Shown: one piece after another, positions 1,181-47,777 of the stretch
Layout of the letters: each line of letters opens with the position of its first letter
Position numbering within the stretch: the stretch's first letter is position 1
DNA from: Pirellulaceae bacterium
Lineage (GTDB): Bacteria > Planctomycetota > Planctomycetia > Pirellulales > Pirellulaceae
DNA: 64,000 nucleotides
NCBI GenBank assembly: GCA_041685355.1
Contig: JAWLFY010000005.1
Coordinates: 5,269-69,268, forward strand
Direction: 5' to 3'
The notes under the pieces: model-generated
The model's database searches: none
Seen by the model: only the letters and a program-made list of their open reading frames with translations
What the model was told of the DNA's origin: nothing
Program-made: the position numbers and the translations under genes

Positions 1181-1250
1181 CGTCAAACGGCCCCCGTCAA
1201 ACGGCCCCCGCCAAACGGCCCTCCGAAAGCGGCCTTCCGAAAGCGGCCCT
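1181..1250. repeat. Degenerate tandem repeat, about 5 copies of 14 bp (cgtcaaacggcccc / ccgaaagcggccyt)
   Basis: Read directly. It lies between the uspA-like start and the stop of the 1078-aa gene. Confidence 0.8.
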
Positions 1251-11094: not shown

Positions 11095-11253
11095 CGATGC
11101 CCTTTCCCCAGTCGCCTAGCTGAGCAGCGTCAGTTCGAATCAAAAACTCGGTCAAGGAGTGTCTATCGCCGCCGAAGCCGCGCCGCAATCGTGGGACCGG
11201 ACGGCTTGCGCCGTTCCGCGAAGGTGTGAACGATACAAAGCGGTGTTATTCAG

Positions 11254-12702: not shown

Positions 12703-14102
12703 CGATCGAGCGTCGACTTGGACCGCAAGATGTGATGGTAGTGCTGGGCGAACCGGTGCGATTCGTCGCGGACGTATTGCAACAACCGGAGCGCGAACGC
12801 GCCGCGACTGAGCCGGAGCGGTTCGGAAATCCCCGGCCGATAAATTTCCTCGTCTCGCTTGGCGAGCGAGATCACCGTCGGCGGATCGATTTCCTGGTCG
12901 CGGAACGCCGTCATCGCCGCGTTGAGCTGTCCCTTGCCGCCGTCGATCAGCAGGATGTCGGGGAACGCCTCGTCGCTGTCACAAAGTTTCCGGAATCGAC
13001 GCGAAACGACCTCGTAAATGCTGCGATAATCGTCGACGCCGGAGACCGTTCGCACCCGGAACCGGCGATATCCTGGCTTGAACGGCAACCCGTCGATGAA
13101 CCGGACCAAGCTCGCGACCGTCTCGCCGCCGCCGAGGTGCGCGATGTCGACGCCTTCGATCACCCGCGGCGTTTTCGACAAACCGAGCACCTTGCGGAGA
13201 CCCGCCAACCCTTTTTTGGGGTCGACGTAAAACACCTCCGGCTGGGCGTGGGTTTCGAGCTCGCCCCGTTCGTCGAGCCGCTCCAGCATCCGGATTTCGT
13301 CTCGCAACGTCGCCGCCCGCTCGAAGTCGAGGTCGCGACTCGCCGATCGCATCTCGTCGGTCATCTCCTTGAGCAACCGCGTCTTTCCCCCTTCGAGGAA
13401 CGTTTGCAGCCGACGGATGTCGCGGCGGTAGTCTTCCTTCGTGATCCTTACGTTACAGGGTGCCGAGCACTGGTCGATGCTCGCCAGCAGACACGGCCGG
13501 AACCACTCCCAACGCTCGTCCCCTTCGCGAATGTCGAGTCCACACGTGCGAAACTTGAAGATCCGCTGGAGCACTTGGATCGCACCTCGCAACGCCCCGG
13601 CGCTCGCGAACGGCCCGTATAACTTGACACCCGACTGTTTCGGCTCGCGGGTGATCTCGACCCGCGGAAACTCCTCCCGTGTCGTGATCATCAGGTAGGG
13701 AAACGTCTTGTCGTCCTTGAGGTCCTTGTTGTGTCGGGGCTGGATGTCCTTGATCAGCCGCGACTCCATCAGCAACGCGTCCACCTCGCTGTCGGACTCG
13801 AGATAGTCGATGTCCGCGATTTCGGTGACCCAGTCCGACGTTCGCTGGTCTTCCGCCGCCGCCCGCAAGAAGTAGCTCCCGGCCCGACTCCGCAAGTTCT
13901 TCGCCTTGCCGACGTAAATCACCACCCCCGCGGCGTCCTTCATCAGGTACACGCCGGCGGTCGTCGGGAACGATTTGACCTTCGCGGCCGCCGCCGCAAA
14001 GGGTGACGTGTCATCGCCCTTGGCGAGTTTTTCGAGCTCGAGACTTTCGAGCTCGAGACTTTCGATCGATTCGTCGGCCGCCCGCCGAGGTTCTTCTGTC
14101 AT
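12699..14102 (-). CDS. uvrC: Excinuclease ABC subunit C (short form, no C-terminal HhH2 region seen)
   Basis: GIY-YIG motif 'GVYLMKDAAGVVIYVGKAKNLRSRAGSY'. UVR domain '...DLDFERAATLRDEIRMLERL'. Endonuclease domain 'IEGVDIAHLGG...LLIDGGKGQL...DESHRFAQHYH'. ATG at 14102 with an AGGAA-type RBS; the track start at 14138 is TTG. The ORF ends right after the endonuclease domain. Confidence 0.88.
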   Translation of the reverse strand: MTEEPRRAADESIESLELESLELEKLAKGDDTSPFAAAAAKVKSFPTTAGVYLMKDAAGVVIYVGKAKNLRSRAGSYFLRAAAEDQRTSDWVTEIADIDYLESDSEVDALLMESRLIKDIQPRHNKDLKDDKTFPYLMITTREEFPRVEITREPKQSGVKLYGPFASAGALRGAIQVLQRIFKFRTCGLDIREGDERWEWFRPCLLASIDQCSAPCNVRITKEDYRRDIRRLQTFLEGGKTRLLKEMTDEMRSASRDLDFERAATLRDEIRMLERLDERGELETHAQPEVFYVDPKKGLAGLRKVLGLSKTPRVIEGVDIAHLGGGETVASLVRFIDGLPFKPGYRRFRVRTVSGVDDYRSIYEVVSRRFRKLCDSDEAFPDILLIDGGKGQLNAAMTAFRDQEIDPPTVISLAKRDEEIYRPGISEPLRLSRGAFALRLLQYVRDESHRFAQHYHHILRSKSTLDR

Positions 14103-14305
14103 CCGTTCCTTTGGCTTCCTCTCATTTGATGTCCGCAAAGGGGGCAGACCCTCTCCCCGCGATCCTCCAAGCGTCTGCCCCCCTTTTAGTATCCGCGGAT
14201 CGCAAAAAACTTCGCCCCCTCTTGCGGGGATGACTTGCCTCTACTGTACGAATAGGCACAATGTTCGGTCTCGGTTCATGCTCGTCACATGAGAGGGGGC
14301 AGATC

Positions 14306-16012
14306 ATGACGAAGGAAGTGTCGGAACGGTCACGTTCTCGAGCGGCGATCGCCCGCGAACTCGAGCTCGAATTAACGAAGCTCCGCAACGAGGCCTCGGC
14401 GGCACGGCTCGAGGCGAAGGCGGCCGAGCTGGAGTTGGTTCTACAAAGGTATCGCGATTCGTTCGACGAGGCCGATCCCGAGACGGGAAATCGGGGCGGA
14501 GTCGATTCGTCACCTTTGGCAACGACCATCGCCGAGCGGTCGGCCGCCGGCCCTGCTTTCACCGATCGTGCCGAGTCGCTCACCGACCGATTCCGGGGAT
14601 GGGACGAGGTCCGTAGCCGGCTTCGGATCACCGAACCCGACACGTCCCGCAGCTTGCCTGCCCGATCCGACGGGACCGACGCCGACCGGCCAGCCCCTGA
14701 CGGGCCAGCCCCTGACGGGCCAGCCCCTGACGGGCCAGCCCCTGCACGGCCGGCCCCTGCACGGCCGGCCCCCGCATGGCATGCTTCTAAACGGCAAGCT
14801 CCTGAAGGGCCAGTCCCCTCACGGCCAGAGCCCTCACGTCAACGGAACCCGGCGTCGCACGGCTCCCTTCGGCCGAAGCGAACGAAGGACGGGGTCGAAT
14901 CCCGGCAACCGATCGAACTTGCAACCGATGCTGGTCTCACTTGGGGCACGAAGCCCGCGATCCTGGATCGACCCGGCGTCGCCAAGTCCAAACCGGGACG
15001 CCGCAACCCGGGGCCGGCCTCTCGCGACTCGGGCTCCGATGCCCGCGATCTGAAACACGCCGCCCTCCGCTTCGAACCGACTCCCCCCGACGACGGTTCG
15101 ACGACCAAGCGGCGTCGTCCGGCGGCTTGGGGTGTCAGTTTCGTTGTCCACGTCGGTCTCCTGTTCGTCCTCGGCTTCTGGACGCTCGCGACGCAGCCGC
15201 CGCGGGACCAGGTTGCACTCGCCGCGACGACTTCCGATCCCACCGCCGACCCGATGGAGACGTTTGTCGTGGAGGCCACCGAGCCGGAAGCCGAGGAACC
15301 GGAGGAACCGTTGGCGGAACCCGAGATCGAGACGAGTCCGGTGGGGGAGATCCCTGTCGCCGACTTTGCCCTCGATCTGAGCCCCGCGCTGCCGACGCCA
15401 GAAAGTTTCGCGGCAGTCACCGGGACGACGTCCGCGTTGGCGTCGGTGAGCGCGGACGCGGACGCCTCCGAAACGATGGAGTTCTGCGGGGTCGAAGGGG
15501 GCGGCAACCACTTCGTCTACTTGGTCGACAGTTCCGGAAGCATGGGAGCGGCGTTCGAATCGGCGCGGGCGGAGTTGCTCCGTTCGATCGCCCTGCTGAA
15601 GCCCGAGCAACGCTTCTATGTCGTTTTCTTTGACGAGAACCCCGACTACATGCGGCTCGAAGATCCGAGCCGGGACGAACCCGCCAGCGTGTCGGCGACG
15701 CCCGAGAACAAACGGCGGCTCGCGCGGTGGGCAGCCGGGATCAGGAAAGACCGCGGCCGTGCCCCGTACGAGCCGCTGCGGTTCGCGTTGGAGCTTCGAC
15801 CCGACGTGATCTTTCTTCTCTCCGACGGCGAATTTCCCCAACGGATCGAGGACCAACTGCGGGACGAGAACCGATATGAAAATCTGTTCGGCGATTCCGG
15901 TCCGATCAGCATCGTGCACACGATCGGGTATCACAGCCGTGAAGGGGAGCTCCGGATGCGGCGGATCGCCGAACAGAACGGCGGCCGGTACCGGCACGTC
16001 CCGAAGCGGTGA
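14306..16012 (+). CDS. Membrane-anchored von Willebrand factor A (vWA) domain protein
   Basis: ATG at 14306 preceded by GAGAGGGGG. N-terminal coiled-coil, then a PAPDG/PAPAR repeat (15-bp tandem units ~14690-14770). One TM helix (WGVSFVVHVGLLFVLGFWTLA). C-terminal vWA domain with a MIDAS-like 'LVDSSGSM'. Confidence 0.75.
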   Translation: MTKEVSERSRSRAAIARELELELTKLRNEASAARLEAKAAELELVLQRYRDSFDEADPETGNRGGVDSSPLATTIAERSAAGPAFTDRAESLTDRFRGWDEVRSRLRITEPDTSRSLPARSDGTDADRPAPDGPAPDGPAPDGPAPARPAPARPAPAWHASKRQAPEGPVPSRPEPSRQRNPASHGSLRPKRTKDGVESRQPIELATDAGLTWGTKPAILDRPGVAKSKPGRRNPGPASRDSGSDARDLKHAALRFEPTPPDDGSTTKRRRPAAWGVSFVVHVGLLFVLGFWTLATQPPRDQVALAATTSDPTADPMETFVVEATEPEAEEPEEPLAEPEIETSPVGEIPVADFALDLSPALPTPESFAAVTGTTSALASVSADADASETMEFCGVEGGGNHFVYLVDSSGSMGAAFESARAELLRSIALLKPEQRFYVVFFDENPDYMRLEDPSRDEPASVSATPENKRRLARWAAGIRKDRGRAPYEPLRFALELRPDVIFLLSDGEFPQRIEDQLRDENRYENLFGDSGPISIVHTIGYHSREGELRMRRIAEQNGGRYRHVPKR

Positions 16013-16018
16013 CGCGAC

Positions 16019-17791
16019 CTAGAAGGAGCTCAGCGACCAGACGACCGTGACCACGGTCGCGGCGGCAACCGCGAAGTAGATCGCGATCGCGGCGCGTCGT
16101 TGCCACCGGTCGCGACGACGACGCTCCGGCGACCATTGCACCTCGTTCTGCAAATCCAGGATGAACGGGATGCACCCTTCGGCGAAGGCTTGACCCGAGG
16201 CCGCGGAGGCGCCGGTGGCGGCGATGAAACAGCCGCGGAGTCGGACCCGACCCTCGGCCGCCGCGACGGCGCGGCGGAGCATCCGTGACATCCCCTCTCG
16301 GCGCCCTCGCATCACGTCCACCAAACGGTGGATTCGACGGTTTTCCTGACTCATCAATCGGTCATCCGCGGGCGCGGCGACGTCGCGACGCATCAACCGG
16401 TACCCGAGAGGCGGAAAGAGTTCGTCACAAATCCAACGCACCGCGCGATCGATCCCCTCGGCCTCGGCGTCCGGTTCGCTAGGAGGCGCCGCGGGCAGGC
16501 AGGCGCCAAGCCGCCGGTGCCGCTGCGTCTCGGGGAAGCGGTCGAGAAACGCGTGGCTCCCTCGGCATTGATCCAGGTCGCAAAAGATCCACTGCGCCGA
16601 CACCGACGTTTCGGTCGCCGCCGCGACCGTTTGCAAATCGCGTTCGACCCGCATCCCGACGTGATCGGCCAGTTCGGTGTCGTCGGCCGCGTCGAGCGGG
16701 ACCATCACGAGCACACCGTTGACCGGACAGAACGGGCGTCGTCGCTCCGCCAGTTCACGGCACACCGCGTCGAGCCGCTCGAGACACTGTTCGGCCTCGA
16801 CCGGATCGAGACGCAACAGTGACGACGCGGCCTTGGTGGGCTGGAGGACCGTTTCCGAATCCGTCGACCGTTCGTCGGTCAACGTTTCGAGGTCCGTCAT
16901 CGTTCGGTTCAACCTTTCCACGGTCGCGTGATCGGCGGTCGCGTGATCGACGGTCGGTGAGACGCCGCCGGTCGAATTCGGACTTGGGTCGATCGCCACG
17001 GCGGTCCCGCCAACGCCCGATCCGGCCGGCCCTCCCGCCGCGCCCGATCCGGCCGGCCCTCCCGCCGCGCCCGATCCGGCCAACGCTCGCGTTTGGGACG
17101 AGGCGGCGGTTCCTGCCGCGCGATCGGTCCAAAGGTGGGCGGGGCTGCGGGAAATCCGACTCCGTCCGGCCAGCTCCACCTGGCGACGTTCGACCCGCGC
17201 CCGCGCCGCCTGGCGAGTGAACGTTCCCGACAAGCTGACGTCGCGACAGCAGACGTAGATCGCTTCGCGGTTTCCGCAGACCTGAACCGCCTCGTCGGAC
17301 TCCTCCGGCTGTGGCAACACCGCCAACTCGACGTGGGCGGCGGCAAAGAATTCGCGAATCCCGCCCGCCGGGCTACCGAGAACCAGATAGAGCGGGGTTC
17401 GCGAGACGTCGATTCCGGCCCGCGCGAATCGGTCAAGGCCGGTCCGGACGGCCGCCGTCGACGAGTCGAACAGCGGACGCTCGTCCGGCCGACGGAGGGT
17501 CCGCGCGAAGAACCATGCCGACCAGGCGGTCGCGTCGATTAATACGCCAAGGATCGGCAGCCACAGGGCGCGGAGTAGCGGCAGCGATGAACGGACGAAC
17601 GCGTCGAGCCGGAACACGATTTGGGCGGTCACCAGCAATCCCAGAACGACCCCCATCGCGGTCACATGGATCGCAATGACCAGCGACCGCTGCCACGTCC
17701 GATCGGCCCGACGCCACGCGACGGTCGGCGCGAACGAGGCGAGGGCGATCATCCCCAAGATGTGCAACGATTTGGCGAGGAGTGCGATCAT
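16019..17791 (-). CDS. tssM: TssM/IcmF-like protein, N-terminal (membrane + cytoplasmic) module only
   Basis: 590 aa with ATG at 17791, 66 bp downstream of tssL. N-terminal hydrophobic helices. 'TPLYLVLGSPAGGIREFF' sits at the position of the TssM P-loop 'PWYLvlGppGsGKTt'. 'PVNGVLVMVPLD' and 'AQWIFCDLDQCRG..AFLDRF' resemble the following TssM blocks (the PiNGv and TKcDll.GF blocks recalled from memory). It ends with one TM helix (AIAIYFAVAAATVVTVVWSL) followed directly by the stop. Similarity was judged by eye only. Confidence 0.6.
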   Translation of the reverse strand: MIALLAKSLHILGMIALASFAPTVAWRRADRTWQRSLVIAIHVTAMGVVLGLLVTAQIVFRLDAFVRSSLPLLRALWLPILGVLIDATAWSAWFFARTLRRPDERPLFDSSTAAVRTGLDRFARAGIDVSRTPLYLVLGSPAGGIREFFAAAHVELAVLPQPEESDEAVQVCGNREAIYVCCRDVSLSGTFTRQAARARVERRQVELAGRSRISRSPAHLWTDRAAGTAASSQTRALAGSGAAGGPAGSGAAGGPAGSGVGGTAVAIDPSPNSTGGVSPTVDHATADHATVERLNRTMTDLETLTDERSTDSETVLQPTKAASSLLRLDPVEAEQCLERLDAVCRELAERRRPFCPVNGVLVMVPLDAADDTELADHVGMRVERDLQTVAAATETSVSAQWIFCDLDQCRGSHAFLDRFPETQRHRRLGACLPAAPPSEPDAEAEGIDRAVRWICDELFPPLGYRLMRRDVAAPADDRLMSQENRRIHRLVDVMRGRREGMSRMLRRAVAAAEGRVRLRGCFIAATGASAASGQAFAEGCIPFILDLQNEVQWSPERRRRDRWQRRAAIAIYFAVAAATVVTVVWSLSSF

Positions 17792-17857
17792 GACTGGCGG
17801 ACTGGCGGTTCGGGGTGGGAGCTGATGCGGGATATCGCGAGAAACGCGGGCGACTCG

Positions 17858-18487
17858 TCACCGGGCCCAAGTCGTGACCGCGAGGTACGACAAGACCGGA
17901 AGCAGAACGACCGCCGATACCCACGCCACATGACTGGAACGTTCAAGCGACGCCGCACCGAGTAACGGAGGGACGTCGGTCGCCGGGGACAGGTCGTGGC
18001 TGAACGGCAATTTCAACTCCGGGACCCAGCCGAGCGTGACGCGGGTGCGATGGATCCAAGCCGATAGCTTCTCCGGCTCCGTGCGGTATTGGCCGGTGAA
18101 GCCGAGCTGGACGCACAAGTAGAAGACCGCGAGGTCCTCGTGGCGGCCGATCGTCTCCGCGAGCGACGCTTGACGCCAAAACATCCACGCCCGGTCGTTC
18201 GTGCCGAACAACTCCCCCTCCAGCTTGTTCTCGTTCCACGCGGCACCGAGCGACTCGTCGTCGGTCATGATCTCGTCGATCCAGCAAACCAACGGGTAGA
18301 CCAAGCCGAGGTAATCGCCGGTGGCCATTCCCGCGGCGAGCTGCGCGTTGTGGATCCGCGTCAACAACTCTTTCAGCTCGGACCGCGGGACCGAAAGGTC
18401 CTTCGACTCCGTGCCCGAATGGTTCGTCAGGATTAGCCAGGTTTGCTCGAAAATCGGGTCGACGAGTTCGGCGGTTTCGGGACGCAT
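17858..18487 (-). CDS. tssL: Type VI secretion protein TssL (DotU family), no peptidoglycan-binding extension
   Basis: Internal ATG at 18487 (MRPETAEL...). DotU hallmark 'AVFYLCVQLGFTGQYR'. A single C-terminal TM helix (VAWVSAVVLLPVLSYLAVTTW) and then the stop. Confidence 0.8.
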   Translation of the reverse strand: MRPETAELVDPIFEQTWLILTNHSGTESKDLSVPRSELKELLTRIHNAQLAAGMATGDYLGLVYPLVCWIDEIMTDDESLGAAWNENKLEGELFGTNDRAWMFWRQASLAETIGRHEDLAVFYLCVQLGFTGQYRTEPEKLSAWIHRTRVTLGWVPELKLPFSHDLSPATDVPPLLGAASLERSSHVAWVSAVVLLPVLSYLAVTTWAR

Positions 18488-18662
18488 GATGCCAGATTCG
18501 AGACGCGAGTGGGTGGGAATGACGGCGGGCCGGTTCGCGGATGGCACGCCGAGGCGGGATCGCGTTGAAACGTAGGTCACCGCCCGGGCCGACGAAGCCC
18601 CGCCACGGGGCGAATTCTCGACGCGTGCGACGGACGACCGATCGCTCCGCGACCTTCTCGAT

Positions 18663-18764
18663 ATCCATCGGTGACGCGAGAGATCCATCGGTGACGCGAG
18701 AGATCCACGGCTGACGCGAGAGCATCGGCTGATGACCCGAGAGCATCAGCTGATGAAGCGAGGG
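18663..18764. repeat. Degenerate tandem repeat, about 5 copies of 20-21 bp (atccatcggtgacgcgagag ...)
   Basis: Two perfect 20-bp copies (18663-18702) followed by three progressively diverged copies. It lies in the divergent tssL / tssA intergenic region. Confidence 0.8.
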
Positions 18765-18836
18765 CATCGACCCGAAACGCAAAAAGTCGGGAGGGAGCCG
18801 TTCACCCCACTTTGACGTGACCTAACGTTTTTCGTC

Positions 18837-20087
18837 ATGACCGCTCGGCCTCTCGCCGGGTCACGTCGCCCGCCTTCGCACGAGTCCCGTCTGATGTCCC
18901 CGCCCCGACCGAGACCTCAACCGGATCCCGCGTCCGAAAACCCCTTGGCTTTCGACATCGAGAATCTGCTGCGGCCGATCTCCGACGCGGAACCCGGTGG
19001 CGACCCGCTCGCCTACAGCCACTGGCTTCGCTCCCAACTGTCGCAGCTCCGCAACCCGGCCCGCTCGGCCAACCCCGACGACCCGGTCCGCGACGTCGAT
19101 GAGCTGATCGATTGGGGCGAGATCTTTGACACGTCTTCGCGAGCGCTCGGTGAAACGACGAAAGACCTGCGTGTCGTTTGCCACTTGACCGAGGCGGCGA
19201 TGCACCGCTTCGGTTTGGCGGGACTCCGCACGGGGATCGTCCTGCTGCGGCGGTTGTGCGAAGAGAACTGGGATTCGCTCGCCCCCGCGGTCGACCCGGA
19301 CGACCCCGAAGTCCGCTGCGCCCCGCTAGAGAACCTGCTCGACGACCCGAATCACGGTCCCCGTCTTCCGACCGCTCTCCGGGCGCTGCCGATCCTGCCG
19401 ACTGACCCGCAACCGGTCAGCTTGATCACGGCGTTGGCGACCAAAGACGAAAAGGCCGCGTCCGATCTGTCCGCGTCGATCGATCGGATTCCCGTCGAGA
19501 CCGCGAACACGCTCTCGTCAGAACTGAACGAGACGTCCGGCGAACTGGACGCGTTGCAGCACGTGTTGCTCGAACGGATGGGAGACTACGCCCCGACGTT
19601 CCTGCACCTCCGTGAATCGCTCGACCTGCTGCGGCAATGGCTCGATAAAGTCTTGGAACCGCAATTGCGTTCGGGCCCGGTCGCCGCCGAAAGCGACTCG
19701 CCGGTGCCCCCCCCCGACGTTCCCGCGACCGCCGACGATTCCGATGACGGGGCCTCGGCCGGCGGGGTGATCCGACGCGACCGGGCGATCGGTCGCCGCG
19801 ACCCGGCCGGCGGCGATCCCGGCGAAGCGCCCGAACGCGTGCTCGATCGAACCGACGTGCTGCGGGCCGACGCGTACCGCCAGCTGACCCGCGCGGCGGA
19901 CGTGTTGCGTCGGATCGAGCCGCACAGCCCGATCCCGTACATGGTTCAACGCGCGGTGCGTCTCGGCCAACTGCCGTTGCCGGAACTGATGGCCGTGATC
20001 GTGCGCGACGAATCGACGCTTGCGACCTACAGCCGCGAGCTAGGGTTGTCCGGCTTCGGGCCGGAGTCATCCGACGATGAGCCCTGA
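18837..20087 (+). CDS. tssA: Type VI secretion protein TssA (ImpA N-terminal domain family)
   Basis: The ImpA_N signature 'LLRPISDAEPGGDPLAYSHWL' and the C-terminal 'IEPHSPIPYMVQRAVRLGQLPLPELM' are both typical of TssA/ImpA proteins. An alternative ATG lies at 18894. Confidence 0.85.
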   Translation: MTARPLAGSRRPPSHESRLMSPPRPRPQPDPASENPLAFDIENLLRPISDAEPGGDPLAYSHWLRSQLSQLRNPARSANPDDPVRDVDELIDWGEIFDTSSRALGETTKDLRVVCHLTEAAMHRFGLAGLRTGIVLLRRLCEENWDSLAPAVDPDDPEVRCAPLENLLDDPNHGPRLPTALRALPILPTDPQPVSLITALATKDEKAASDLSASIDRIPVETANTLSSELNETSGELDALQHVLLERMGDYAPTFLHLRESLDLLRQWLDKVLEPQLRSGPVAAESDSPVPPPDVPATADDSDDGASAGGVIRRDRAIGRRDPAGGDPGEAPERVLDRTDVLRADAYRQLTRAADVLRRIEPHSPIPYMVQRAVRLGQLPLPELMAVIVRDESTLATYSRELGLSGFGPESSDDEP

Positions 20088-20164
20088 ACACCGTTCTCGT
20101 ACCGTCCGGACGCTCCGGTCGGTTGTGGTTCCCTTTTTACGTTTCCGATTTCAAGGAGCATCCC

Positions 20165-20695
20165 ATGGGTGACAGTTTGCAACACACGTTGGACCGAGTC
20201 CGACGTCCCCGAGTTCAGGTGACCTACGACGTCGAGACCGGCGGCGCCTTGGAGCGAAAAGAGCTCCCGCTCGTCGTCGGCGTGATGGCGGACCTGTCGG
20301 GCCAACCGGCCGAACCGAACGCGCCGCTCAAGCAGCGAAAGTTCGTCCCGGTCGACCGCGACAACTTGAACGACGTGCTCGCCAGCAGCAAGGCCCGCGT
20401 CGCGGCCCGCGTCCCGAACCGGCTGGCCGACGACAACACCGAGCTCCCGGTCGAACTGAAGTTCCAGTCGCTCGAAGACTTCGAACCGGAACAGGTCGCC
20501 CGCCAGGTCCCCGCCCTCCGCGAACTGCTCGAGATGCGGACCCAACTGTCGAACCTGCTCGGCAAGCTGGAAGGCAACGACAAGCTCGAACAACTGCTCG
20601 GCGAAGTGCTCGAGAACGGCGAAACCGCCCAGTCATTGGCCGGCGATCTCGGCGTCGAAGACGAGAAGAAAGACTCGGAAGAAAAGTCCAAGTGA
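20165..20695 (+). CDS. tssB: Type VI secretion sheath small subunit TssB (VipA)
   Basis: ATG at 20165 with AAGGAG upstream. 'RPRVQVTYDVETGGALERKELPLVVGVMADLSG' matches the TssB N-terminal core. Confidence 0.92.
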   Translation: MGDSLQHTLDRVRRPRVQVTYDVETGGALERKELPLVVGVMADLSGQPAEPNAPLKQRKFVPVDRDNLNDVLASSKARVAARVPNRLADDNTELPVELKFQSLEDFEPEQVARQVPALRELLEMRTQLSNLLGKLEGNDKLEQLLGEVLENGETAQSLAGDLGVEDEKKDSEEKSK

Positions 20696-20760
20696 CCTTT
20701 CGGACGCTCTGACGCACCCCCCTTTCCTTCGTACTTACCCGAATCCCACGGAACCGAATC

Positions 20761-22233
20761 ATGGCACAAGCCCAAACCGAAGCGGCCGGCGGCGCCGCAG
20801 TCGCCGAACTGTCACTGATCGATCAGATCCTCGACCAAACCCGCGCCCTCGACGACAACGAGCGGGAGCGGAACCAGACCTACATCGAGCAATTCGTCCG
20901 CAAGGTGCTCGACGGCCAAACGACGATCAGCAAAGACGTCGTCACCACGATCACCAACTGGATCGCCGACATCGACCACAAGTTGTCGGTGCAGTTGAGC
21001 GAGGTGATGCACTGCGACGAGTTCCAGAAGCTCGAAGGGACATGGCGCGGCCTGCACTACCTGACCCAGAACAGCGAGACGGGGACGAGCCTCAAGATCC
21101 GCGTGCTGAACGTCAAGAAGGCCGAATTGCAGAAAGACCTGGAGAAGGCCGTCGAGTTTGACCAGAGCACGCTGTTCCGCAAGTGCTACGAAGAGGAGTA
21201 CGGACAACTCGGTGGCGAACCCTACGGGATGCTCGTCGGCGATTACCACTTCAGCCGCACCGCTGACGACGTCAACTTGGTGCGGTTGATCAGCAACGTC
21301 GCCGCCGCCGCGCACGCCCCGTTCGTCGCCGGCGCCGACCCGAACCTGTTCAACATGGACACGTTCACCGAGCTCAGCGGGCCGCGGGACCTGGCGAAGA
21401 TCTTCCAGGGTGTCGAGTACGCCGGGTGGCGGAGCTTCCGCGAGAGCGAGGACAGCCGCTACGTCGCGTTGACCCTGCCGAACGTGCTGGGACGGCTCCC
21501 CTACGGCCAAGAGTTCAAGAAGATCGAAGCGTTCGACTTCGAAGAACAGGTCGACGGCAGCAAACACCAGCAGTACTTGTGGATGAACGCGTCGTGGGCC
21601 TATGCGGCTCGCGTCACCGACGCGTTCTCTAAGCACGGTTGGTTCGCCCAGACCCGCGGGGTCGAAGGGGGCGGCAAGGTCGAAGGGTTGCCCGTGCACA
21701 CCTTCCCGACCGACGACGGCGACGTCGCGATGAAGTGCCCGACCGAAATCGCGATCACCGACCGTCGCGAGTTCGAACTGTCGAACCTCGGCTTCCTGCC
21801 GCTGGTGCACTGCAAGAACACCGACTACGCCGCGTTCCTCGGGGCGCAGAGCTGCCAGAAGCCGAAGACGTACTTCGAAGACGACGCCAACGCCAACGCC
21901 GAGTTGTCCTCGAAGATCAACTACCTGATGTGCGTCAGCCGCTTCGCGCATTACCTGAAGGTGATGGCCCGCGACAAGATCGGGTCGACGATGGAACGCG
22001 GGGAGTGCCAGGAATGGCTCAACGATTGGATCAGCAACTACGTCTGCGACCCGGTCACCGCCGGTGACGAGACGAAGGCCGAACGGCCGCTGAGCGAAGC
22101 CCGCGTCGAAGTCGCCGAGATCGCCGGACGCCCCGGTTGGTACGAGGCGATCGCGTACCTGCGTCCGCATTTCCAGATGGAAACGTTGGGCGCCTCGATG
22201 CGACTCGTCGCCGAAGTCCCGCAACAGGGTTAA
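20761..22233 (+). CDS. tssC: Type VI secretion sheath large subunit TssC (VipB)
   Basis: 490 aa. 'FQKLEGTWRGLHYL', 'LKIRVLNVKKAEL', 'YGMLVGDYHF', 'AAAAHAPFVAG', 'YVALTLPNVLGRLPYG', consistent with the VipB family throughout. Confidence 0.95.
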   Translation: MAQAQTEAAGGAAVAELSLIDQILDQTRALDDNERERNQTYIEQFVRKVLDGQTTISKDVVTTITNWIADIDHKLSVQLSEVMHCDEFQKLEGTWRGLHYLTQNSETGTSLKIRVLNVKKAELQKDLEKAVEFDQSTLFRKCYEEEYGQLGGEPYGMLVGDYHFSRTADDVNLVRLISNVAAAAHAPFVAGADPNLFNMDTFTELSGPRDLAKIFQGVEYAGWRSFRESEDSRYVALTLPNVLGRLPYGQEFKKIEAFDFEEQVDGSKHQQYLWMNASWAYAARVTDAFSKHGWFAQTRGVEGGGKVEGLPVHTFPTDDGDVAMKCPTEIAITDRREFELSNLGFLPLVHCKNTDYAAFLGAQSCQKPKTYFEDDANANAELSSKINYLMCVSRFAHYLKVMARDKIGSTMERGECQEWLNDWISNYVCDPVTAGDETKAERPLSEARVEVAEIAGRPGWYEAIAYLRPHFQMETLGASMRLVAEVPQQG

Positions 22234-22250
22234 ACGCCCGCGGGATGAAA

Positions 22251-22277
22251 CGCGAACCGGCGCGTCGCCGGTTCGCG
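22251..22277 (+). promoter_or_regulatory. Perfect 12-bp stem-loop between tssC and hcp (no U-tract)
   Basis: CGCGAACCGGCG-cgt-CGCCGGTTCGCG read directly, 18 nt after the tssC stop. It is followed by gcgattcc, with no T-run. Confidence 0.5.
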
Positions 22278-22341
22278 GCGATTCCAGACTGACAAGTTCA
22301 AAACCGACCTAACGAACGAATTCACGAAGCGAGGACCTACC

Positions 22342-22848
22342 ATGGCAGTCGACTATTTCCTGAAGATTGATGGCATTAGCGGCGAATCCGAGGACGACAA
22401 GCACAAGGACGAGATCGAGATCGTCGATTTCGAATGGGGCGAAGAACAAACCTCCAACTTCGCCCAAGGCGGCGGCGGCGGTGGCGGCAAGGTCAAGATG
22501 GCCAACTTCAAGTTCCGCACGTTCCTCAACAGCGCCTCCCCGGCCCTGATGCAGTCGTGTGCCGAAGGGAAGCACATCAAGGACGCCGTGTTCACCTGCC
22601 GCAAGGCGGGCGGCGGCCAGAAGGATTACTACAAGGTCACGATGGAAGACCTGATCGTCGCGTCGTGCCACATCAGTGGCGGGAACGGCAACGTCGAAGA
22701 GGGCGGCTACGTCGACGGGCACCCGATCGAAGAGATCACGCTCAACTTCGGCAAGATCAAGTGGGAATACCACCCGCAGAAGAACGACGGCTCGCTCAAC
22801 TCGGCGAAGACCGGCGGCTACGACCTGAAGAAGAACACGCGGGTCTGA
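22342..22848 (+). CDS. hcp: Type VI secretion tube protein Hcp (TssD)
   Basis: 168 aa. 'MAVDYFLKIDGISGESEDDKHKDEIEIVDFEWG' is a classic Hcp N-terminus, and the length is typical. Confidence 0.93.
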   Translation: MAVDYFLKIDGISGESEDDKHKDEIEIVDFEWGEEQTSNFAQGGGGGGGKVKMANFKFRTFLNSASPALMQSCAEGKHIKDAVFTCRKAGGGQKDYYKVTMEDLIVASCHISGGNGNVEEGGYVDGHPIEEITLNFGKIKWEYHPQKNDGSLNSAKTGGYDLKKNTRV

Positions 22849-22886
22849 TCGTCGTCGCTTGACGTCATCGAGCGGATCGAACCGAC

Positions 22887-22923
22887 GACCCGCGGGCGCA
22901 CTTAGGTCCGCGGGTCGTTTTTC
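22887..22923 (+). terminator. Rho-independent-type terminator after hcp
   Basis: GACCCGCGG-(12-nt loop)-CCGCGGGTC followed by GTTTTTC, 39 nt after the hcp stop. Confidence 0.6.
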
Positions 22924-22970
22924 ATCCGCACGGCCCCACCCGACGGCCCTCTCTGACCGGAACCGCAGCG

Positions 22971-23450
22971 ATGCCTATCTCCCGTGAAACGCAACTCTTG
23001 CCTAGCGTCTTCGACCGGCTCGCCGATCTGAGCGGTGACGGCATCAACAGCGACGAGTGGTACGACATCGACCGGCTGACCCAGGCGGTCCGCCGCGACT
23101 TGGAGGACCTGCTCAACACGCAAAGGACCGTTCCCGGTCTCGCGTCGTCGTTCCCGATGCTGGCCGAGTCGGTCGTCGGGTTCGGCGTCCCGGACCCGTC
23201 GACGTTCTCGCTGGAGACGCCGGCCGGGCGACGCCAATTCGCCGCGGCGCTGGTCCACACGATCCACACGTTCGAGCCGCGGCTCCGCGACGTCCGCATC
23301 GAACTGGGGGGCGACAGCGGGGAAAAGCTCCGCGACCTCCGCTTCCGCGTCGTCGCGCGACTGGCCGCCGAGCCGGCACCTCAGATCATCTTCGAATCCA
23401 AGCTCCATGTCCCGAGCGGACAGTTCAGCGTGGGGGAAGCGTCCCAATGA
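22971..23450 (+). CDS. tssE: Type VI secretion baseplate protein TssE (gp25-like)
   Basis: 159 aa. 'LLPSVFDRLAD', 'DLEDLLNTQR', 'FGVPD'. The stop overlaps the tssF start (ATGA). Confidence 0.88.
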   Translation: MPISRETQLLPSVFDRLADLSGDGINSDEWYDIDRLTQAVRRDLEDLLNTQRTVPGLASSFPMLAESVVGFGVPDPSTFSLETPAGRRQFAAALVHTIHTFEPRLRDVRIELGGDSGEKLRDLRFRVVARLAAEPAPQIIFESKLHVPSGQFSVGEASQ

Positions 23451-25279
23451 CCCAAACACTGTTTCAGTACTACGAACGCGAACTGCAGTACCAACGCGAG
23501 CAGGCGTGCGACTTCGCGGCGCGTTATCCGGCGGCCGCCGGGCGGTTGCGGATGGACGCCACCGGTGTCAGCGACCCGCACGTCGAACGGATCATCCAAT
23601 CCGTGTCGCTGCTCGCCGCCCGCGTTCATAAGCGACTCGACGACGACTTGCCCGAAGTCACCGACGCGTTGTTGTCGATCCTGTATCCGCACTACTTGCG
23701 TCCGATCCCGTCGATGGCGATCGTCGAACTGGCGGCCGATCCGGCGAACTTGCCGCCCGAAGGCTTGACCGTTCCCCGCGAGACGCCGCTGCGGACTTCC
23801 CCCGTCGGCGACCACGCGTGTCGCTATCGGACGACCCAGGAAACCGAGTTGTGGCCGATCGAGATCACCGACGTCGCGTTGCTGCAACCTCCCTTCGGGG
23901 ACTGCCCGGCGGTTCCCGCCGAGACCGGGTCGGCGCTCCGGATTCGGATCCGACACCTGCAAGGAAAGCCGCTTCGAGGCGTCCCGGTCGACCACCTCCG
24001 GTTTCACCTGACCGGCCCCGAAACGGTCGTGGCCGGGTTGTACGAGGGTCTGCTCAACGACGCGACCGAAGTCGTGTTTCGGGCCGCCGGGGTGGAACCG
24101 CGACGCCGTTCCGCCGAGTCGACGCTGACCGCCAGCGGGTTCGCCCGTGAGCAAGCGATGCTCCCCTCCCCCGAAGCCTCGTTCGAGGGCTACCGCTTGC
24201 TCACCGAACTGTTCTCCTTCCCCGACAAGTTCGCCTTTGTGGATCTCGGGGGATGGGACGAGATCCGCGACGACTTGTACTCGCCCGAGGTCGAGATCTG
24301 GGTGTTTCTCCGTTCGTCCCAGGACGAAATCGTCGGCGACGTTCGCAAGGACCACATCCGTCTCGGCTGCACGCCCGTGGTGAACCTGTACCCGAAAATT
24401 TGCGAGCCGATCCAATTCACCCGCCACCGGCCGGAGTACCGGGTCGTCCCCGACGCGTCGCGGCGGTTGGGGTGCGAGGTGTACTCGGTCGACGGACTCG
24501 ACAGCGCCCGTTCCGCGGGTGAGCGCGGTTGGCAACCGTTTTTCGATATCAGCCGCCGACACGCCGCCGACACCGCGGTCGGGTATTGGCACGCGGCCCG
24601 CCGCGAGAGTCAGGCGCCGGGGGACCACGGGACCGAGATCTATCTGCAACTGGTCGACGAACATTTCGACCCGTGTTATCCGGGGACCGAAGTCGTCGCG
24701 GTACGGGCGACGTGCACCGACCGTGACGTCCCGAATCTGCTTCGCCAACACGGCGACGCGGTGACGTGGCACGTCGACGCGCCGATTCCCGTCAAATCGG
24801 TCCGCTGCCTGAAACACCCCACGCCACCGCTGCGGCCCCCGGTGCGACGTCACGCCCATTGGAACCTGATCAGCCACCTGGCGCTGGGGCATCGGTTCCT
24901 CGAAGGGCCAGACGGACTCGACGCGCTCCGCGAGATCCTTCACCTGTACGATTTCTCCGACCCGAACTCGTACGACCCTCGCGGGGCGACCGCGCGACAG
25001 ATGATCGACGGGATCGTCGAGATGCGTCATCGGTCGGTCACCCGCCAAGTCGGGCCGCCGGAAGACGGGTGCTTCGCCCGCGGCTCGCAATTGACGTTCG
25101 TGCTCAGCGAGGACAACTACGAATCGGTCGGGGTGTTCCTGTTCGCCTCGGTGCTGCGACGATTCCTGGGGTTGGCGAGCGGGATCAACTCGTTCGTCGA
25201 AACGGTGATCGAGTCGAAGCAGCGTGACGGGGTCGTCGCGCACTTCCCGCCGCACGTCGGGGAGGAGCCGTCGCTGTGA
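23447..25279 (+). CDS. tssF: Type VI secretion baseplate protein TssF
   Basis: ATG at 23447 inside ORF 23057..25279. 'LFQYYERELQYQREQACDFAARYPAAAGRL' is the canonical TssF N-terminus. 610 aa. Confidence 0.92.
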   Translation: MTQTLFQYYERELQYQREQACDFAARYPAAAGRLRMDATGVSDPHVERIIQSVSLLAARVHKRLDDDLPEVTDALLSILYPHYLRPIPSMAIVELAADPANLPPEGLTVPRETPLRTSPVGDHACRYRTTQETELWPIEITDVALLQPPFGDCPAVPAETGSALRIRIRHLQGKPLRGVPVDHLRFHLTGPETVVAGLYEGLLNDATEVVFRAAGVEPRRRSAESTLTASGFAREQAMLPSPEASFEGYRLLTELFSFPDKFAFVDLGGWDEIRDDLYSPEVEIWVFLRSSQDEIVGDVRKDHIRLGCTPVVNLYPKICEPIQFTRHRPEYRVVPDASRRLGCEVYSVDGLDSARSAGERGWQPFFDISRRHAADTAVGYWHAARRESQAPGDHGTEIYLQLVDEHFDPCYPGTEVVAVRATCTDRDVPNLLRQHGDAVTWHVDAPIPVKSVRCLKHPTPPLRPPVRRHAHWNLISHLALGHRFLEGPDGLDALREILHLYDFSDPNSYDPRGATARQMIDGIVEMRHRSVTRQVGPPEDGCFARGSQLTFVLSEDNYESVGVFLFASVLRRFLGLASGINSFVETVIESKQRDGVVAHFPPHVGEEPSL

Positions 25280-26424
25280 CGATCGAATCCCCTGCCGCAT
25301 CCGCGAGCCTTTCGGCCAGCGTTTTCTCCGCGGCGACGCTCACCGACGCCGACCAGCTCCGGCTGCCCCGCGGCTCGGTCGCCCGCGAGTTGTTGGAAAC
25401 GCCCTGGAAGTTCGACTTCTTTCAATCCGTGCTGTTGTTGCAACAGGTCACCGCGTCGAACTCGGGCGCGCCGACAGCGCCGCTCGGTCGGTTTTCGCGT
25501 CCGAGCGACGAGGCGATGCGGTTCGCCGTCCCCGACAGCTTGGCGTTCCCCGGATCGACGATCCGTTCGATCGGATGGAACTTCGCCGAAGGACGCCCGA
25601 TCGTCCGCGTCAACTTCATGGGCCTCACCGGCCCCTCGGGGATGCTCCCCGACGCGTACACCGAACGGCTGCAGCGGATCGATCTGGGCTCGCGACACGA
25701 GAACCGGCATGCGCTCCGCGATTGGCTCGACAACTTCAATCACCGACTGATCTCGCTGTTCTTTGACGCGTGGGCGAAGTACCGCTTTCCGGTCGCGATC
25801 GAGCGTCAACGGATCGAATCGGAGCGGGGGCGGAAACGGGCGACGACGGTGCGGGTCGCGCTCTCCGCCGTCGCGGGACTCGACCCAGAGCACCGTGAGC
25901 AGGCGATCGATCGAGACGAGCTGTTGGGGCTCGCCGGAATGTTCGCCCAGCGGCCGATGACGGTCTGCAACCTGCAAGCGGCGCTGCGGCGGTCGCTCGG
26001 GGTACCGATCCGGATCCGACAATTCCAACCGGAGTGGCTGGTCGTCGAGCCCGATTCGCAAACGTCGCTCGGCATCGCCAACGGCATCCTCGGCCGCGAC
26101 GCGTTGGTCGGCGAGCGGATATGGAGCCGCGCGCAAAAGATCTTGATCGAGGTCGGGCCGTTATCGAGAGAGGACTTCCCGAGGTTTCTGCCGCCGACCG
26201 GTGAGAACCCTGGCGACGCGTACCGCAAACTCGCCGAACTGGTGCGGTTGGCGATCGGCCCCTCGACCGAGTTCGACATCCGACCGATGCTCAAGGTCGA
26301 AAGTCCCCTGGAGGTGCGTCTCTCTGCCGCCGACGAGGCGAACCGACTCGGCATCGACAGTTGGATGGGGACCCCCGAGAACGCCGAAACCGTCGGCGAC
26401 GCCGTCTTCGCCGGCGCCGCGTAG
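25276..26424 (+). CDS. tssG: Type VI secretion baseplate protein TssG
   Basis: GTG at 25276 overlaps the tssF stop (GTGA). 'PWKFDFFQSVLLLQQ' and 'RVNFMGLTGPSGMLP' are typical of TssG. Confidence 0.9.
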   Translation: MTIESPAASASLSASVFSAATLTDADQLRLPRGSVARELLETPWKFDFFQSVLLLQQVTASNSGAPTAPLGRFSRPSDEAMRFAVPDSLAFPGSTIRSIGWNFAEGRPIVRVNFMGLTGPSGMLPDAYTERLQRIDLGSRHENRHALRDWLDNFNHRLISLFFDAWAKYRFPVAIERQRIESERGRKRATTVRVALSAVAGLDPEHREQAIDRDELLGLAGMFAQRPMTVCNLQAALRRSLGVPIRIRQFQPEWLVVEPDSQTSLGIANGILGRDALVGERIWSRAQKILIEVGPLSREDFPRFLPPTGENPGDAYRKLAELVRLAIGPSTEFDIRPMLKVESPLEVRLSAADEANRLGIDSWMGTPENAETVGDAVFAGAA

Positions 26425-47444: not shown

Positions 47445-47483
47445 TGCGATCTGTCGAAATCGGTGTCGAGTACGGGCGGTCGG

Positions 47484-47777
47484 TCAGGCGTCGGTCGCTC
47501 CTCCTGAGTCTAGTGCGGAATTCCCGCCCCGGTTGGCGGCCGTGTCGTCGTCTCGCAGCATCCGGTCGGCGGAGCGGACCACCCGAGTGTATTCCGCGAG
47601 CGCCGCCGCGAGCCGGTTCAGGCTCGGACCGAGCTCCGCCAAATGCTGTCGCTCGAACTCCGCGGCACGCGCATCGGCCCAGTCTGTTCGGACCGACTGC
47701 CACAACCGCGCCAACTCGACGAATTCGTGCCGGAGCCGGTCGTCCGCGTCTCGGATCGGAGTCAACGGGTCGTGCAC
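47484..47777 (-). CDS. WXG100-like small helical protein (W-x-D variant)
   Basis: 97 aa with a GTG start. Predicted helix-turn-helix size class. 'TDWADARAAEF' resembles the WXG100 core 'W.G.aa.aF'. It has a disordered acidic/Gly tail. It sits 39 nt upstream of the FtsK-like gene, in an operon-like arrangement. Confidence 0.45.
   Translation of the reverse strand: MHDPLTPIRDADDRLRHEFVELARLWQSVRTDWADARAAEFERQHLAELGPSLNRLAAALAEYTRVVRSADRMLRDDDTAANRGGNSALDSGGATDA

What the first reader, a model, noticed from the sequence alone, without database searches (positions are those of the whole stretch)
16019..26424. Compact T6SS locus lacking tssJ, tssK, clpV, vgrG and PAAR within 64 kb
Nine T6SS genes are recognisable by hallmark motifs: tssA, tssB, tssC, hcp, tssE, tssF and tssG on the + strand, with tssL and a tssM-like gene divergent on the - strand. 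tssE/F/G are coupled by 4-nt overlaps.

I could find no ORF with TssK, TssJ, ClpV (AAA+), VgrG (gp27/gp5) or PAAR features anywhere in the window. In canonical T6SS-i loci tssK sits directly upstream of tssL, and clpV/vgrG follow tssG. Here tssL heads its operon, and tssG is followed by an A/T-richer DoxX gene and an Rpn-family nuclease.

Either the missing parts are encoded elsewhere, or this lineage runs a reduced or divergent machine. To my knowledge, T6SS loci in Planctomycetota have only been catalogued computationally and never characterised.
Basis: partly seen in the sequence, partly recalled or inferred. Interest (0 to 1): 0.75.

Follow-up and report, generated by a model that had tools for sequence, protein, structure and literature searches.

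The report
Trimmed planctomycete T6SS with short TssM
A real, evolutionarily maintained nine-gene type VI secretion core in a Pirellulaceae genome has lost its usual neighbours (tssK, clpV, vgrG, PAAR) from the locus, and its membrane anchor is a half-length TssM with no periplasmic part, so it is an under-described variant of a known machine, not a new kind.

Summary
Nine T6SS genes lie at 16019-26424, confirmed by Pfam and NCBIfam. tssE/F/G overlap by 4 nt. No TssK, TssJ, ClpV, VgrG or PAAR was found in the window, or in 10 kb beyond its left edge.

The same module (tssG-F-E-hcp-C-B-A divergent from tssL-tssM) recurs in Rosistilla, Roseimaritima and several MAGs, often with clpV after tssM. 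All nine genes are under purifying selection (dN/dS 0.03-0.19).

More distant planctomycete loci, including Rhodopirellula baltica, keep tssK before tssL and clpV-vgrG-PAAR after tssG. So this locus is a trimmed derivative of a layout like the Pseudomonas aeruginosa H1-T6SS.

T6SS genes are scattered across this phylum: tssK lay within 10 kb of tssF in 1 of 15 loci, and orphan tssK-tssL(-tssM) operons exist. Supply of the missing genes from elsewhere is therefore the likeliest reading. I could not search the whole genome, so it is unproven.

The "tssM-like" gene belongs to a large family of about 520-640 aa proteins. They end at the last membrane helix, lack the periplasmic domain and have a degenerate Walker A motif. 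This fits the absence of TssJ.

The parts
16019..17791 (-). Short TssM (590 aa). It has 2-3 N-terminal membrane helices, a degenerate P-loop (GSPAGGIR), a low-complexity linker (about aa 210-330), an IcmF-related_N domain (aa 348-536) and a C-terminal membrane helix (567-585) followed by only 5 residues. There is no periplasmic domain.
   Evidence: Pfam. NCBIfam TIGR03348 gives only 20.6 bits, matching positions 194-364 of 1168. Sequence. Full-length conservation in 21 homologues. Hydropathy. AF2 model. hhalign to long TssM aligns only residues 351-531. The MAG's own annotation calls only a 293-aa fragment.
17858..18487 (-). TssL/DotU, 209 aa, with a single C-terminal membrane helix and no peptidoglycan-binding extension. 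It is the first gene of the minus-strand operon. The open frame runs on to 18688, but homologues and the annotation support the 18487 start.
18488..18893 (.). Divergent tssL / tssA intergenic region, presumably holding both promoters. It contains a tandem array of about 5 copies of a 20-21 nt unit at 18663-18769.
   Evidence: A related 21-nt x2 repeat sits at the same place in the close relative L090. None was found in L004 or L089.
18894..20087 (+). TssA (397 aa; ImpA_N; TIGR03363 class). The ORF is open from 18837.
20165..20695 (+). TssB, the small sheath subunit (176 aa). The ORF is open from 20123.
20761..22233 (+). TssC, the large sheath subunit (490 aa). It is more than 90% identical across the clade, including Rosistilla.
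22342..22848 (+). Hcp/TssD tube protein (168 aa)
22971..23450 (+). TssE (gp25-like baseplate wedge, 159 aa)
23447..25279 (+). TssF (610 aa). Its ATG overlaps the tssE stop (ATGA).
25276..26424 (+). TssG (382 aa). Its GTG overlaps the tssF stop (GTGA).

Best explanation
The locus is the compact core module of a planctomycete-type T6SS.

What it encodes (shown): the contractile sheath (TssB/C), the tube (Hcp), the baseplate wedge (TssE/F/G), the assembly protein TssA, and a membrane anchor made only of TssL plus a short TssM that lies in the cytoplasmic membrane with no periplasmic domain.

Where it comes from (inferred from relatives): an ancestral layout like the P. aeruginosa H1-T6SS (subtype i3). 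That layout is tssK-tssL-tssM divergent from tssA-B-C-hcp-tagJ-E-F-G-clpV-vgrG-PAAR. Some Planctomycetota still have it.

In the Rosistilla/Roseimaritima clade, tssK, tagJ, vgrG and PAAR are no longer linked to the module. In the sub-lineage of this window, clpV has also left the locus.

The module is maintained by selection, so I infer that it still builds a firing apparatus. The spike (VgrG/PAAR) and the baseplate connector (TssK) would then be encoded elsewhere in the genome. Sheath recycling would be done by an unlinked ClpV or by ClpB.

Lack of TssJ and of the TssM periplasmic domain is a trait of this whole T6SS lineage and not an accident of this locus. The complex is therefore anchored in the inner membrane without the usual TssJ-TssM trans-envelope channel.
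For: 1. Gene identities.
2. The same 9-gene module in the same divergent arrangement is found in Rosistilla carotiformis (L004), a TARA scaffold (L005), a Roseimaritima MAG (L008), a UBA MAG (L089), the close relative L090 and L091/L007.
3. clpV follows tssM directly in L004 and L089. In four more MAGs it appears to be on the same contig, judged only by matching contig lengths.
4. Purifying selection acts on all nine genes (window vs L090: dN/dS 0.03-0.19; housekeeping flanks 0.04-0.08). TssC is more than 90% identical across genera.
5. Relatives with the full set and a short TssM:
   - L057: tssM(short)-tssL-tssK on the minus strand, divergent from A-B-C-hcp-tagJ-E-F-G-clpV-x-vgrG-DUF6931-PAAR.
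   - L092: tssG, an unknown gene, clpV and an FHA-like gene, then further on tssK-tssL-short tssM.
   - R. baltica: tssK, tssL, a 577-aa gene with no COG hit, then A-B-C-hcp-E-F-G-vgrG-x-PAAR.
6. Scattering is normal in the phylum. In 15 Planctomycetota-labelled loci with full 10-kb flanks around tssF, TssK was present in 1, VgrG in 4, PAAR in 2, and TssL with short TssM in 4. Orphan tssK-tssL (L093) and tssK-tssL-tssM(short) (L094) operons exist.
7. The short TssM is a large family: 377 representatives at E <= 1e-30, and the best 150 are all 305-636 aa.
8. The closest named solved sheaths are P. aeruginosa HsiB1 (4uqz) and 5n8n. That 5n8n is the P. aeruginosa H1 sheath, and the H1 gene order itself, are from my own knowledge.
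Against: - No TssK, VgrG or PAAR gene was actually found in this MAG or in any genome carrying the 9/10-gene module.
- The 120 best of 1018 TssK hits include none named Rosistilla or Roseimaritima, although those genomes are in the database under those names. The list is truncated, so this is only weak evidence.
- No clade-type ClpV (more than 70% identity to Rosistilla's) is attributable to this MAG.
- Function is inferred from sequence conservation only. No expression or structural data exist.
- A non-homologous periplasmic or outer-membrane partner could exist and would weaken the 'inner-membrane only' reading. Secreted c41/c39 proteins occur in some planctomycete loci.
Confidence: 0.6

Rival explanations
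1. Truly reduced machine. The Rosistilla/Roseimaritima clade, including this genome, has no TssK, VgrG or PAAR anywhere, and this sub-lineage also has no ClpV. It runs a contractile apparatus built from nine proteins, or from nine plus unrecognised non-homologous parts.
For: - No K, VgrG or PAAR lies within 10 kb of the module in any of 7 clade loci.
- No clade-named TssK is among the top 120 hits.
- The module is bounded as a unit: it is inverted as a block in L007/L091.
- Purifying selection shows it works as it stands.
Against: - TssK and VgrG are required in every T6SS studied experimentally (established knowledge).
- Close gene-family relatives still use them.
- Unlinked tssK operons are common in the phylum.
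- Absence was never tested genome-wide.
Confidence: 0.12
2. Decaying remnant. The locus is what remains of a T6SS after the essential genes were deleted, and it no longer functions.
For: Five usually essential components are missing from the locus. An Rpn-like PD-(D/E)XK gene and lower-GC DNA sit next to tssG.
Against: - All nine ORFs are intact, with preserved translational coupling.
- dN/dS is 0.03-0.19, like the housekeeping neighbours.
- The same module is conserved across genera with TssC more than 90% identical.
Confidence: 0.04
3. Split view of a canonical cluster. The missing genes lie just outside the window, or were lost through an assembly or binning artefact.
For: The source is a MAG contig of 140.6 kb. 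About 55 kb on the left and 12 kb on the right could not be read.
Against: - The cluster is flanked inside the window by 16 kb and 38 kb of unrelated genes.
- The 10 kb beyond the left edge holds no tss gene.
- The same boundaries occur in an independent 693-kb contig (L090) and in complete genomes.
Confidence: 0.03
4. Repurposed apparatus. Without a trans-envelope channel, the inner-membrane-anchored sheath and tube act inside the cell envelope, for example into the enlarged planctomycete periplasm, or on membranes. They would not inject neighbouring cells.
For: The short TssM ends at its last membrane helix, and no TssJ was seen in any planctomycete locus for which annotations were returned. 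The family is large and conserved.
Against: - Relatives with a short TssM carry VgrG, PAAR, DUF6931 adaptor-like genes and large downstream ORFs typical of effector delivery.
- Other T6SSs work without TssJ (from my knowledge: Agrobacterium, Acinetobacter) or without TssJLM (Bacteroidota).
Confidence: 0.1

Closest known systems
Pseudomonas aeruginosa H1-T6SS (HSI-I; subtype T6SS-i3)
   Same: - Two divergent operons, with tssL-tssM on one side and tssA-tssB-tssC-hcp-(tagJ)-tssE-tssF-tssG on the other.
- The fuller planctomycete relative L057 also has tssK before tssL, and tagJ, clpV and vgrG in the H1 positions.
- HsiB1 (4uqz) and 5n8n are the best named solved matches to TssB/TssC.
- The identity of 5n8n as the H1 sheath and the H1 gene order are from my own knowledge.
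   Different: - No tssJ, fha, tagF, ppkA/pppA, tssK, tagJ, clpV or vgrG in this locus.
- TssM is about half length, has no periplasmic domain and no Walker A lysine, and fails the TssM equivalog model.
Rhodopirellula baltica SH1 T6SS locus BX119912C (Boyer et al. 2009, PMC2660368)
   Same: - Same family (Pirellulaceae).
- tssL is followed by a 577-aa ORF with no COG3523 hit, the size and position of the short TssM.
- Then tssA-B-C-hcp-E-F-G.
- No tssJ and no clpV in the locus.
   Different: - R. baltica keeps tssK upstream of tssL and vgrG-x-PAAR-large ORF downstream of tssG, all on one strand.
- Its TssF was not among the 80 best relatives kept, and none of the named members listed for the window's 90% TssC cluster is Rhodopirellula (15 of 34 listed). 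So it may belong to a different sub-lineage.
- I could not read its sequences.
Rosistilla carotiformis Poly24 / R. oblonga / Roseimaritima ulvae T6SS modules (annotated, unstudied)
   Same: Identical nine-gene order and orientation. Short TssM 50-55% identical, TssF 73%, TssC more than 90%.
   Different: They carry clpV (tssH) immediately after tssM in Rosistilla carotiformis and have a clade-type ClpV in R. oblonga and Roseimaritima ulvae. The window and its closest relatives (L090, L091) do not have it after tssM.
T6SS-iii of Bacteroidota, and TssJ-less or ClpV-less T6SSs (Agrobacterium, Acinetobacter; Francisella, Campylobacter)
   Same: These are precedents showing that the canonical TssJLM complex or ClpV is dispensable or replaceable in working T6SSs (from my own knowledge).
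   Different: - T6SS-iii lacks TssL and TssM altogether and uses TssN-R. Here TssL and a TssM remnant are retained.
- The Francisella-type sheath is the most distant match (252 bits, against 546 for 5n8n).

Membership tests
T6SS-i (canonical 13-component system) | TssB/TssC contractile sheath | tested here: met
   Pfam E 7e-58 and 5e-133. TIGR03358 and TIGR03355 are above cut-off.
T6SS-i (canonical 13-component system) | Hcp tube protein | tested here: met
   PF05638 E 2e-39. TIGR03344 73.4 bits vs 58.9.
T6SS-i (canonical 13-component system) | Baseplate wedge TssE, TssF, TssG | tested here: met
   All three are above the curated cut-offs, and the genes are coupled by 4-nt overlaps.
T6SS-i (canonical 13-component system) | TssA | tested here: met
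   ImpA_N E 4e-25. TIGR03363 181 bits vs 160.85.
T6SS-i (canonical 13-component system) | TssL (DotU) | tested here: met
   PF09850 67.7 bits vs cut-off 27, with a C-terminal membrane helix. Caveat: it is below the NCBIfam cut-off (57.7 vs 89.95).
T6SS-i (canonical 13-component system) | Full-length TssM (about 1100-1300 aa) with a Walker A NTPase and a periplasmic IcmF-related/IcmF_C domain that binds TssJ | tested here: not met
   - 590 aa, with only IcmF-related_N.
- TIGR03348 20.6 bits vs 388.
- P-loop reads GSPAGGIR.
- The protein ends 5 residues after its last membrane helix.
- Long-TssM HMMs find nothing else in the window.
T6SS-i (canonical 13-component system) | TssJ outer-membrane lipoprotein | tested here: not met
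   No PF12790 hit in any window gene call or leftover ORF. None among the annotated genes of related loci. The rest of the genome could not be searched.
T6SS-i (canonical 13-component system) | TssK baseplate connector | tested here: not met
   Absent from the window by Pfam and by a clade HMM (best E 4.8), and absent from 10 kb beyond the left edge. Genome-wide presence is not testable with these tools.
T6SS-i (canonical 13-component system) | VgrG spike and PAAR tip | tested here: not met
   Absent from the window. Genome-wide presence is not testable here.
T6SS-i (canonical 13-component system) | ClpV (TssH) sheath-recycling ATPase | tested here: not met
   Absent from the window. Present right after tssM in clade relatives L004 and L089.
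Short TssM family ('IcmF/TssM N-terminal domain-containing protein' of Planctomycetia) | About 520-640 aa; N-terminal membrane helices; degenerate P-loop; IcmF-related_N; terminal membrane helix; encoded directly after tssL | tested here: met
   - Full-length alignment to 20 homologues, 31-94% identity.
- The profile finds 377 representatives at E <= 1e-30, and the best 150 are all 636 aa or shorter.
- Positioned after tssL in the window, L004, L005, L008, L009, L026, L057, L089-L092 and L094.
T6SS-iii (Bacteroidota) | No TssL or TssM; TssN/O/P/Q/R membrane complex | tested here: not met
   TssL and a TssM-derived protein are present. TssN-R were not searched for.
T6SS-ii (Francisella) | IglA/IglB-type sheath | tested here: not met
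   IglB is the weakest sheath match (252 bits, against 546-584 for the best).

The most novel reading that the evidence does not exclude
Planctomycetia run a T6SS whose membrane complex is confined to the cytoplasmic membrane: TssL plus a half-length TssM, with no TssJ and no periplasm-spanning channel. Within it, the Rosistilla/Roseimaritima clade, including this genome, has pared the machine to nine or ten genes and truly lacks TssK, VgrG and PAAR. That would be a minimal contractile secretion apparatus with a baseplate-to-membrane link and a spike unlike any studied T6SS.
Probability: 0.1. Interest if true: 0.85.

Novelty: new variant of a known kind. Interest (0 to 1): 0.55.

Why it matters
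The TssJ-TssL-TssM trans-envelope complex is treated as the defining membrane core of T6SS-i.

Here a large, conserved lineage keeps TssL but has a TssM that stops at the inner membrane. It occurs in a phylum with an atypical cell envelope. This raises a concrete question: how is the tube guided through peptidoglycan and the outer membrane without a channel?

It also offers a natural minimal system for asking which TssM functions are cytoplasmic.

The clade includes cultured strains with complete genomes (Rosistilla, Roseimaritima). So the genome-wide check for tssK/vgrG/PAAR, and then cryo-ET or Hcp secretion assays, are directly feasible.

In practical terms, cluster-based detectors that require TssJ, TssK, TssM, ClpV or VgrG in one locus will under-call these systems.

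Tried and rejected
1. Locating TssK genome-wide.
   - A TssK profile search returned 1018 hits, but only the top 120 are shown. All are L057-like Pirellulales proteins, and none is named for a clade genome.
   - Cluster look-up gave no accession numbers for unnamed NCBI proteins, so hits could not be assigned to the MAG.
   - Three speculative contig look-ups (P0115, P0079, P0112) landed in other assemblies.
2. Searching with Rosistilla ClpV to find where clpV went in this genome found only clade loci where it still follows tssM.
3. The metagenome scan with the short-TssM alignment returned only two short contigs.
4. The AlphaFold model of the short TssM (pLDDT 73) had no significant Foldseek match in the PDB. 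The best hits were E about 0.4 to P-loop GTPases, which I do not use. A PDB sequence search gave only low-complexity noise.
5. I considered the 583-aa VWA membrane protein (14261-16012), convergent with tssM, as a possible accessory part. I rejected it because it travels with the uvrC/hflX flank and not with the module (next to tssG in L007), is fast-evolving (dN/dS 0.35) and is absent from other clade loci.
6. I considered the giant ORF 55970-63955 and the 1078-aa ORF 1250-4486 as effectors or VgrG-like proteins. The giant ORF carries TPR/DUF1581/DUF1583 domains and the other has no family hit. Neither links to T6SS.
7. Literature searches found no study of planctomycete T6SS architecture or of a TssM without a periplasmic domain.


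Full report
**Source.** The window comes from contig JAWLDK010000002.1 (140.6 kb) of the MAG GCA_041686655.1. An identical TssC also occurs in a sibling MAG and in a Logan assembly. The closest named relatives of its T6SS proteins are Pirellulaceae: Rosistilla and Roseimaritima.

**Checking the observation.** GC3-guided gene calling and Pfam scans confirm nine T6SS genes exactly at 16019-26424.
- On the minus strand: a TssM-like gene and tssL.
- On the plus strand: tssA, tssB, tssC, hcp, tssE, tssF and tssG.

NCBIfam places seven of them above curated cut-offs. TssL scores 57.7 bits against a cut-off of 89.95. The TssM-like protein scores 20.6 against 388, matching only profile positions 194-364 of 1168. 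The tssE/tssF and tssF/tssG junctions are ATGA and GTGA overlaps.

I scanned about 40 gene calls across all 64 kb plus ten leftover ORFs against Pfam. I also scanned the six-frame translation with HMMs built from planctomycete and acidobacterial T6SS loci for TssK, VgrG, ClpV, PAAR, DUF4280, TagJ and long TssM. None of the five 'missing' families is present.

The neighbours are ordinary genes:
- Left: uvrC, hflX and sugar-nucleotide enzymes.
- Right: DoxX, a TIM-barrel enzyme, a PDDEXK_2/Rpn-like protein, a radical-SAM enzyme, kinases, ECF sigma factors and glycogen phosphorylase.

DoxX (GC 0.571) and the Rpn-like gene (0.602) are indeed A/T-richer than the window (0.651). The 10 kb beyond the left edge of the window also holds no tss gene.

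**The TssM-like gene.** The 590-aa ORF has the following parts:
- 2-3 N-terminal hydrophobic helices;
- 'TPLYLVLGSPAGGIR' where canonical TssM carries its Walker A motif (no GK[ST]);
- a low-complexity linker;
- the IcmF-related_N domain;
- a terminal membrane helix followed by five residues.

It aligns end to end with 20 homologues of 565-605 aa at 31-94% identity. A profile of these, searched against 1.84 billion cluster representatives, finds 377 at E <= 1e-30. The best 150 are all 305-636 aa.

Profile-profile comparison with long TssMs from Acidobacteriota aligns only residues 351-531 to residues 208-390 of a 1227-aa TssM (probability 72%, E 3.5e-5). This is therefore a distant, short paralogue-like form that keeps only the cytoplasmic segment. 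The periplasmic domain, which in canonical systems contacts TssJ (established knowledge), is absent. It is not encoded separately in the window either.

The AF2 model is confident for the two cytoplasmic lobes but matches nothing solved. The MAG's own annotation truncates the gene to 293 aa.

**Comparative synteny.** The same module, tssG-F-E-hcp-C-B-A divergent from tssL-tssM(short), is found in:
- Rosistilla carotiformis (complete genome);
- a TARA scaffold whose TssM is only 30% identical;
- a Roseimaritima MAG (L008);
- a UBA MAG (L089);
- the near relative L090;
- L091/L007, two contigs of one MAG.

In L004 and L089 a ClpV/TssH gene follows tssM directly. In four further MAGs, clade-type ClpV (more than 70% identical) appears to sit on the same contig as the short TssM, judged only by matching contig lengths. 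The window, L090 and L091 lack it. None of these loci has tssK, vgrG or PAAR within 10 kb.

More distant loci with a short TssM do have them:
- L057: tssM(short)-tssL-tssK on the minus strand, divergent from A-B-C-hcp-ImpE/TagJ-E-F-G-clpV-x-vgrG-DUF6931-PAAR.
- L092, the complete genome of Planctomycetales bacterium 10988: tssG, clpV and an FHA-like gene, then tssK-tssL-tssM(633 aa).
- R. baltica locus (Boyer 2009): tssK, tssL, a 577-aa ORF with no COG hit, tssA-B-C-hcp-E-F-G, vgrG, an ORF, PAAR and a 1463-aa ORF.

That is the gene order of the P. aeruginosa H1-T6SS (my knowledge). P. aeruginosa HsiB1 (4uqz) and the sheath entry 5n8n are the closest named solved homologues of TssB/TssC. An unidentified entry, 9n4v, scores slightly higher.

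**Scattering in the phylum.** I took 15 Planctomycetota-labelled loci with full 10-kb flanks around tssF and counted which components were present:

| Component | Loci with it (of 15) |
|---|---|
| TssK | 1 |
| VgrG | 4 |
| PAAR | 2 |
| ClpV | 7 |
| TssL + short TssM | 4 |

The single long TssM was in a Brocadiaceae MAG. In 20 loci from other phyla, long TssM was present in 14 and VgrG in 14. Isolated tssK-tssL (L093) and tssK-tssL-tssM(short) (L094) operons, with no other tss gene nearby, also exist.

**Is the module alive?** Between the window and L090 (dS 0.16-0.35), dN/dS is 0.03 for tssC, 0.05-0.13 for tssL, F, B, hcp, E, M and G, and 0.19 for tssA. The flanking uvrC, hflX and SDR genes give 0.04-0.08. 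TssC falls in one 90%-identity cluster with the Rosistilla proteins. A relic is therefore very unlikely.

**Interpretation.**

Shown:
- The locus is a conserved, selected core module.
- Its anchor is TssL plus a short inner-membrane TssM.
- The five other components are not in the locus, in this genome or in its clade.

Inferred:
- The module descends from an H1-like layout by loss of linkage.
- The spike and TssK are supplied from other loci.
- Sheath recycling uses an unlinked ClpV or ClpB.
- The lineage works without a TssJ-TssM channel.

I could not test genome-wide presence. The protein searches list only the best 120 hits, contig look-ups are limited to window proteins and listed hits, and all caps are used. 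The reduced-machine reading therefore keeps a real, if minor, probability.

**Literature.** T6SS genes in R. baltica have been noted only in surveys. Planctomycetota appear in distribution lists. I found nothing on their architecture or on a TssM lacking the periplasmic domain.

**Verdict.** The most interesting feature is the short TssM/TssJ-less membrane complex together with the modular scattering of the system. It is a new variant of a known kind, of moderate interest.

Noticed in passing
window 43398-47777 (-): A 1348-aa FtsK/SpoIIIE-family ATPase (E 3e-25) is preceded by a 97-aa ORF with a weak WXG100 match (E 0.009, below cut-off). This pairing resembles the EssC/WXG100 pair of a type VII-like secretion system, in a planctomycete.
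   Followed up: no
window 18663-18769: A tandem array of about 5 copies of a 20-21 nt unit (consensus about TGACGCGAGAGCATCGGCTGA) lies in the divergent tssL/tssA intergenic region. A related 21-nt x2 repeat sits at the same place in the close relative L090; none was found in Rosistilla (L004) or L089. It may be a regulator binding site.
   Followed up: partly
L007 and L091 versus window 10303-26424: In MAG GCA_964462125.1 the VWA-uvrC-hflX-SDR flank lies next to tssG. In the window it lies next to tssM. The nine-gene module is therefore inverted as a block relative to the same flank.
   Followed up: partly
L024, L031, L033, L092 (c41); L018, L024, L033 (c39): Two signal-peptide proteins recur in some planctomycete T6SS loci. 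One has a weak match to the outer-membrane beta-barrel family PF13557 (23.6 bits vs cut-off 22). The other carries HEAT repeats. They are candidate lineage-specific periplasmic or outer-membrane parts. Neither has a homologue in the window.
   Followed up: partly
window 16019-17791 / L001 5145-6026: The gene call held for the source MAG gives only the C-terminal 293 aa of the short TssM. The full 590-aa frame is conserved in 20 homologues. The low-complexity Gly/Ala/Ser linker probably misled the gene caller.
   Followed up: yes
L031, L024: Two contigs labelled 'uncultured Alcaligenaceae bacterium'. L031 carries a planctomycete-type T6SS locus (short TssM, TagJ, 40% TssF identity). L024 has 43% TssF identity and the c41/c39 genes, but no TssM or TagJ was detected in it. 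The contigs are probably mis-binned or mislabelled.
   Followed up: no
L093 10001-12092; L094 5960-10005: Orphan tssK-tssL and tssK-tssL-tssM(short) operons have no other tss gene within reach. In L093, tssL is followed by a T2SS-F-like gene.
   Followed up: partly
window 55970-63955 (-): An ORF of more than 2661 aa, cut by the window end, carries TPR repeats and the planctomycete-specific DUF1581 and DUF1583_N domains. It has no link to the T6SS.
   Followed up: no
window 1250-4486 (-): A 1078-aa ORF has a coding-like composition and no Pfam match at all. It is also called in the MAG annotation.
   Followed up: no
PDB entry 9n4v: A solved T6SS sheath labelled only 'DUF877 family protein' matches TssC and TssB better (584 and 174 bits) than the P. 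aeruginosa entries. I could not determine its organism, and no paper in the library cites it.
   Followed up: partly
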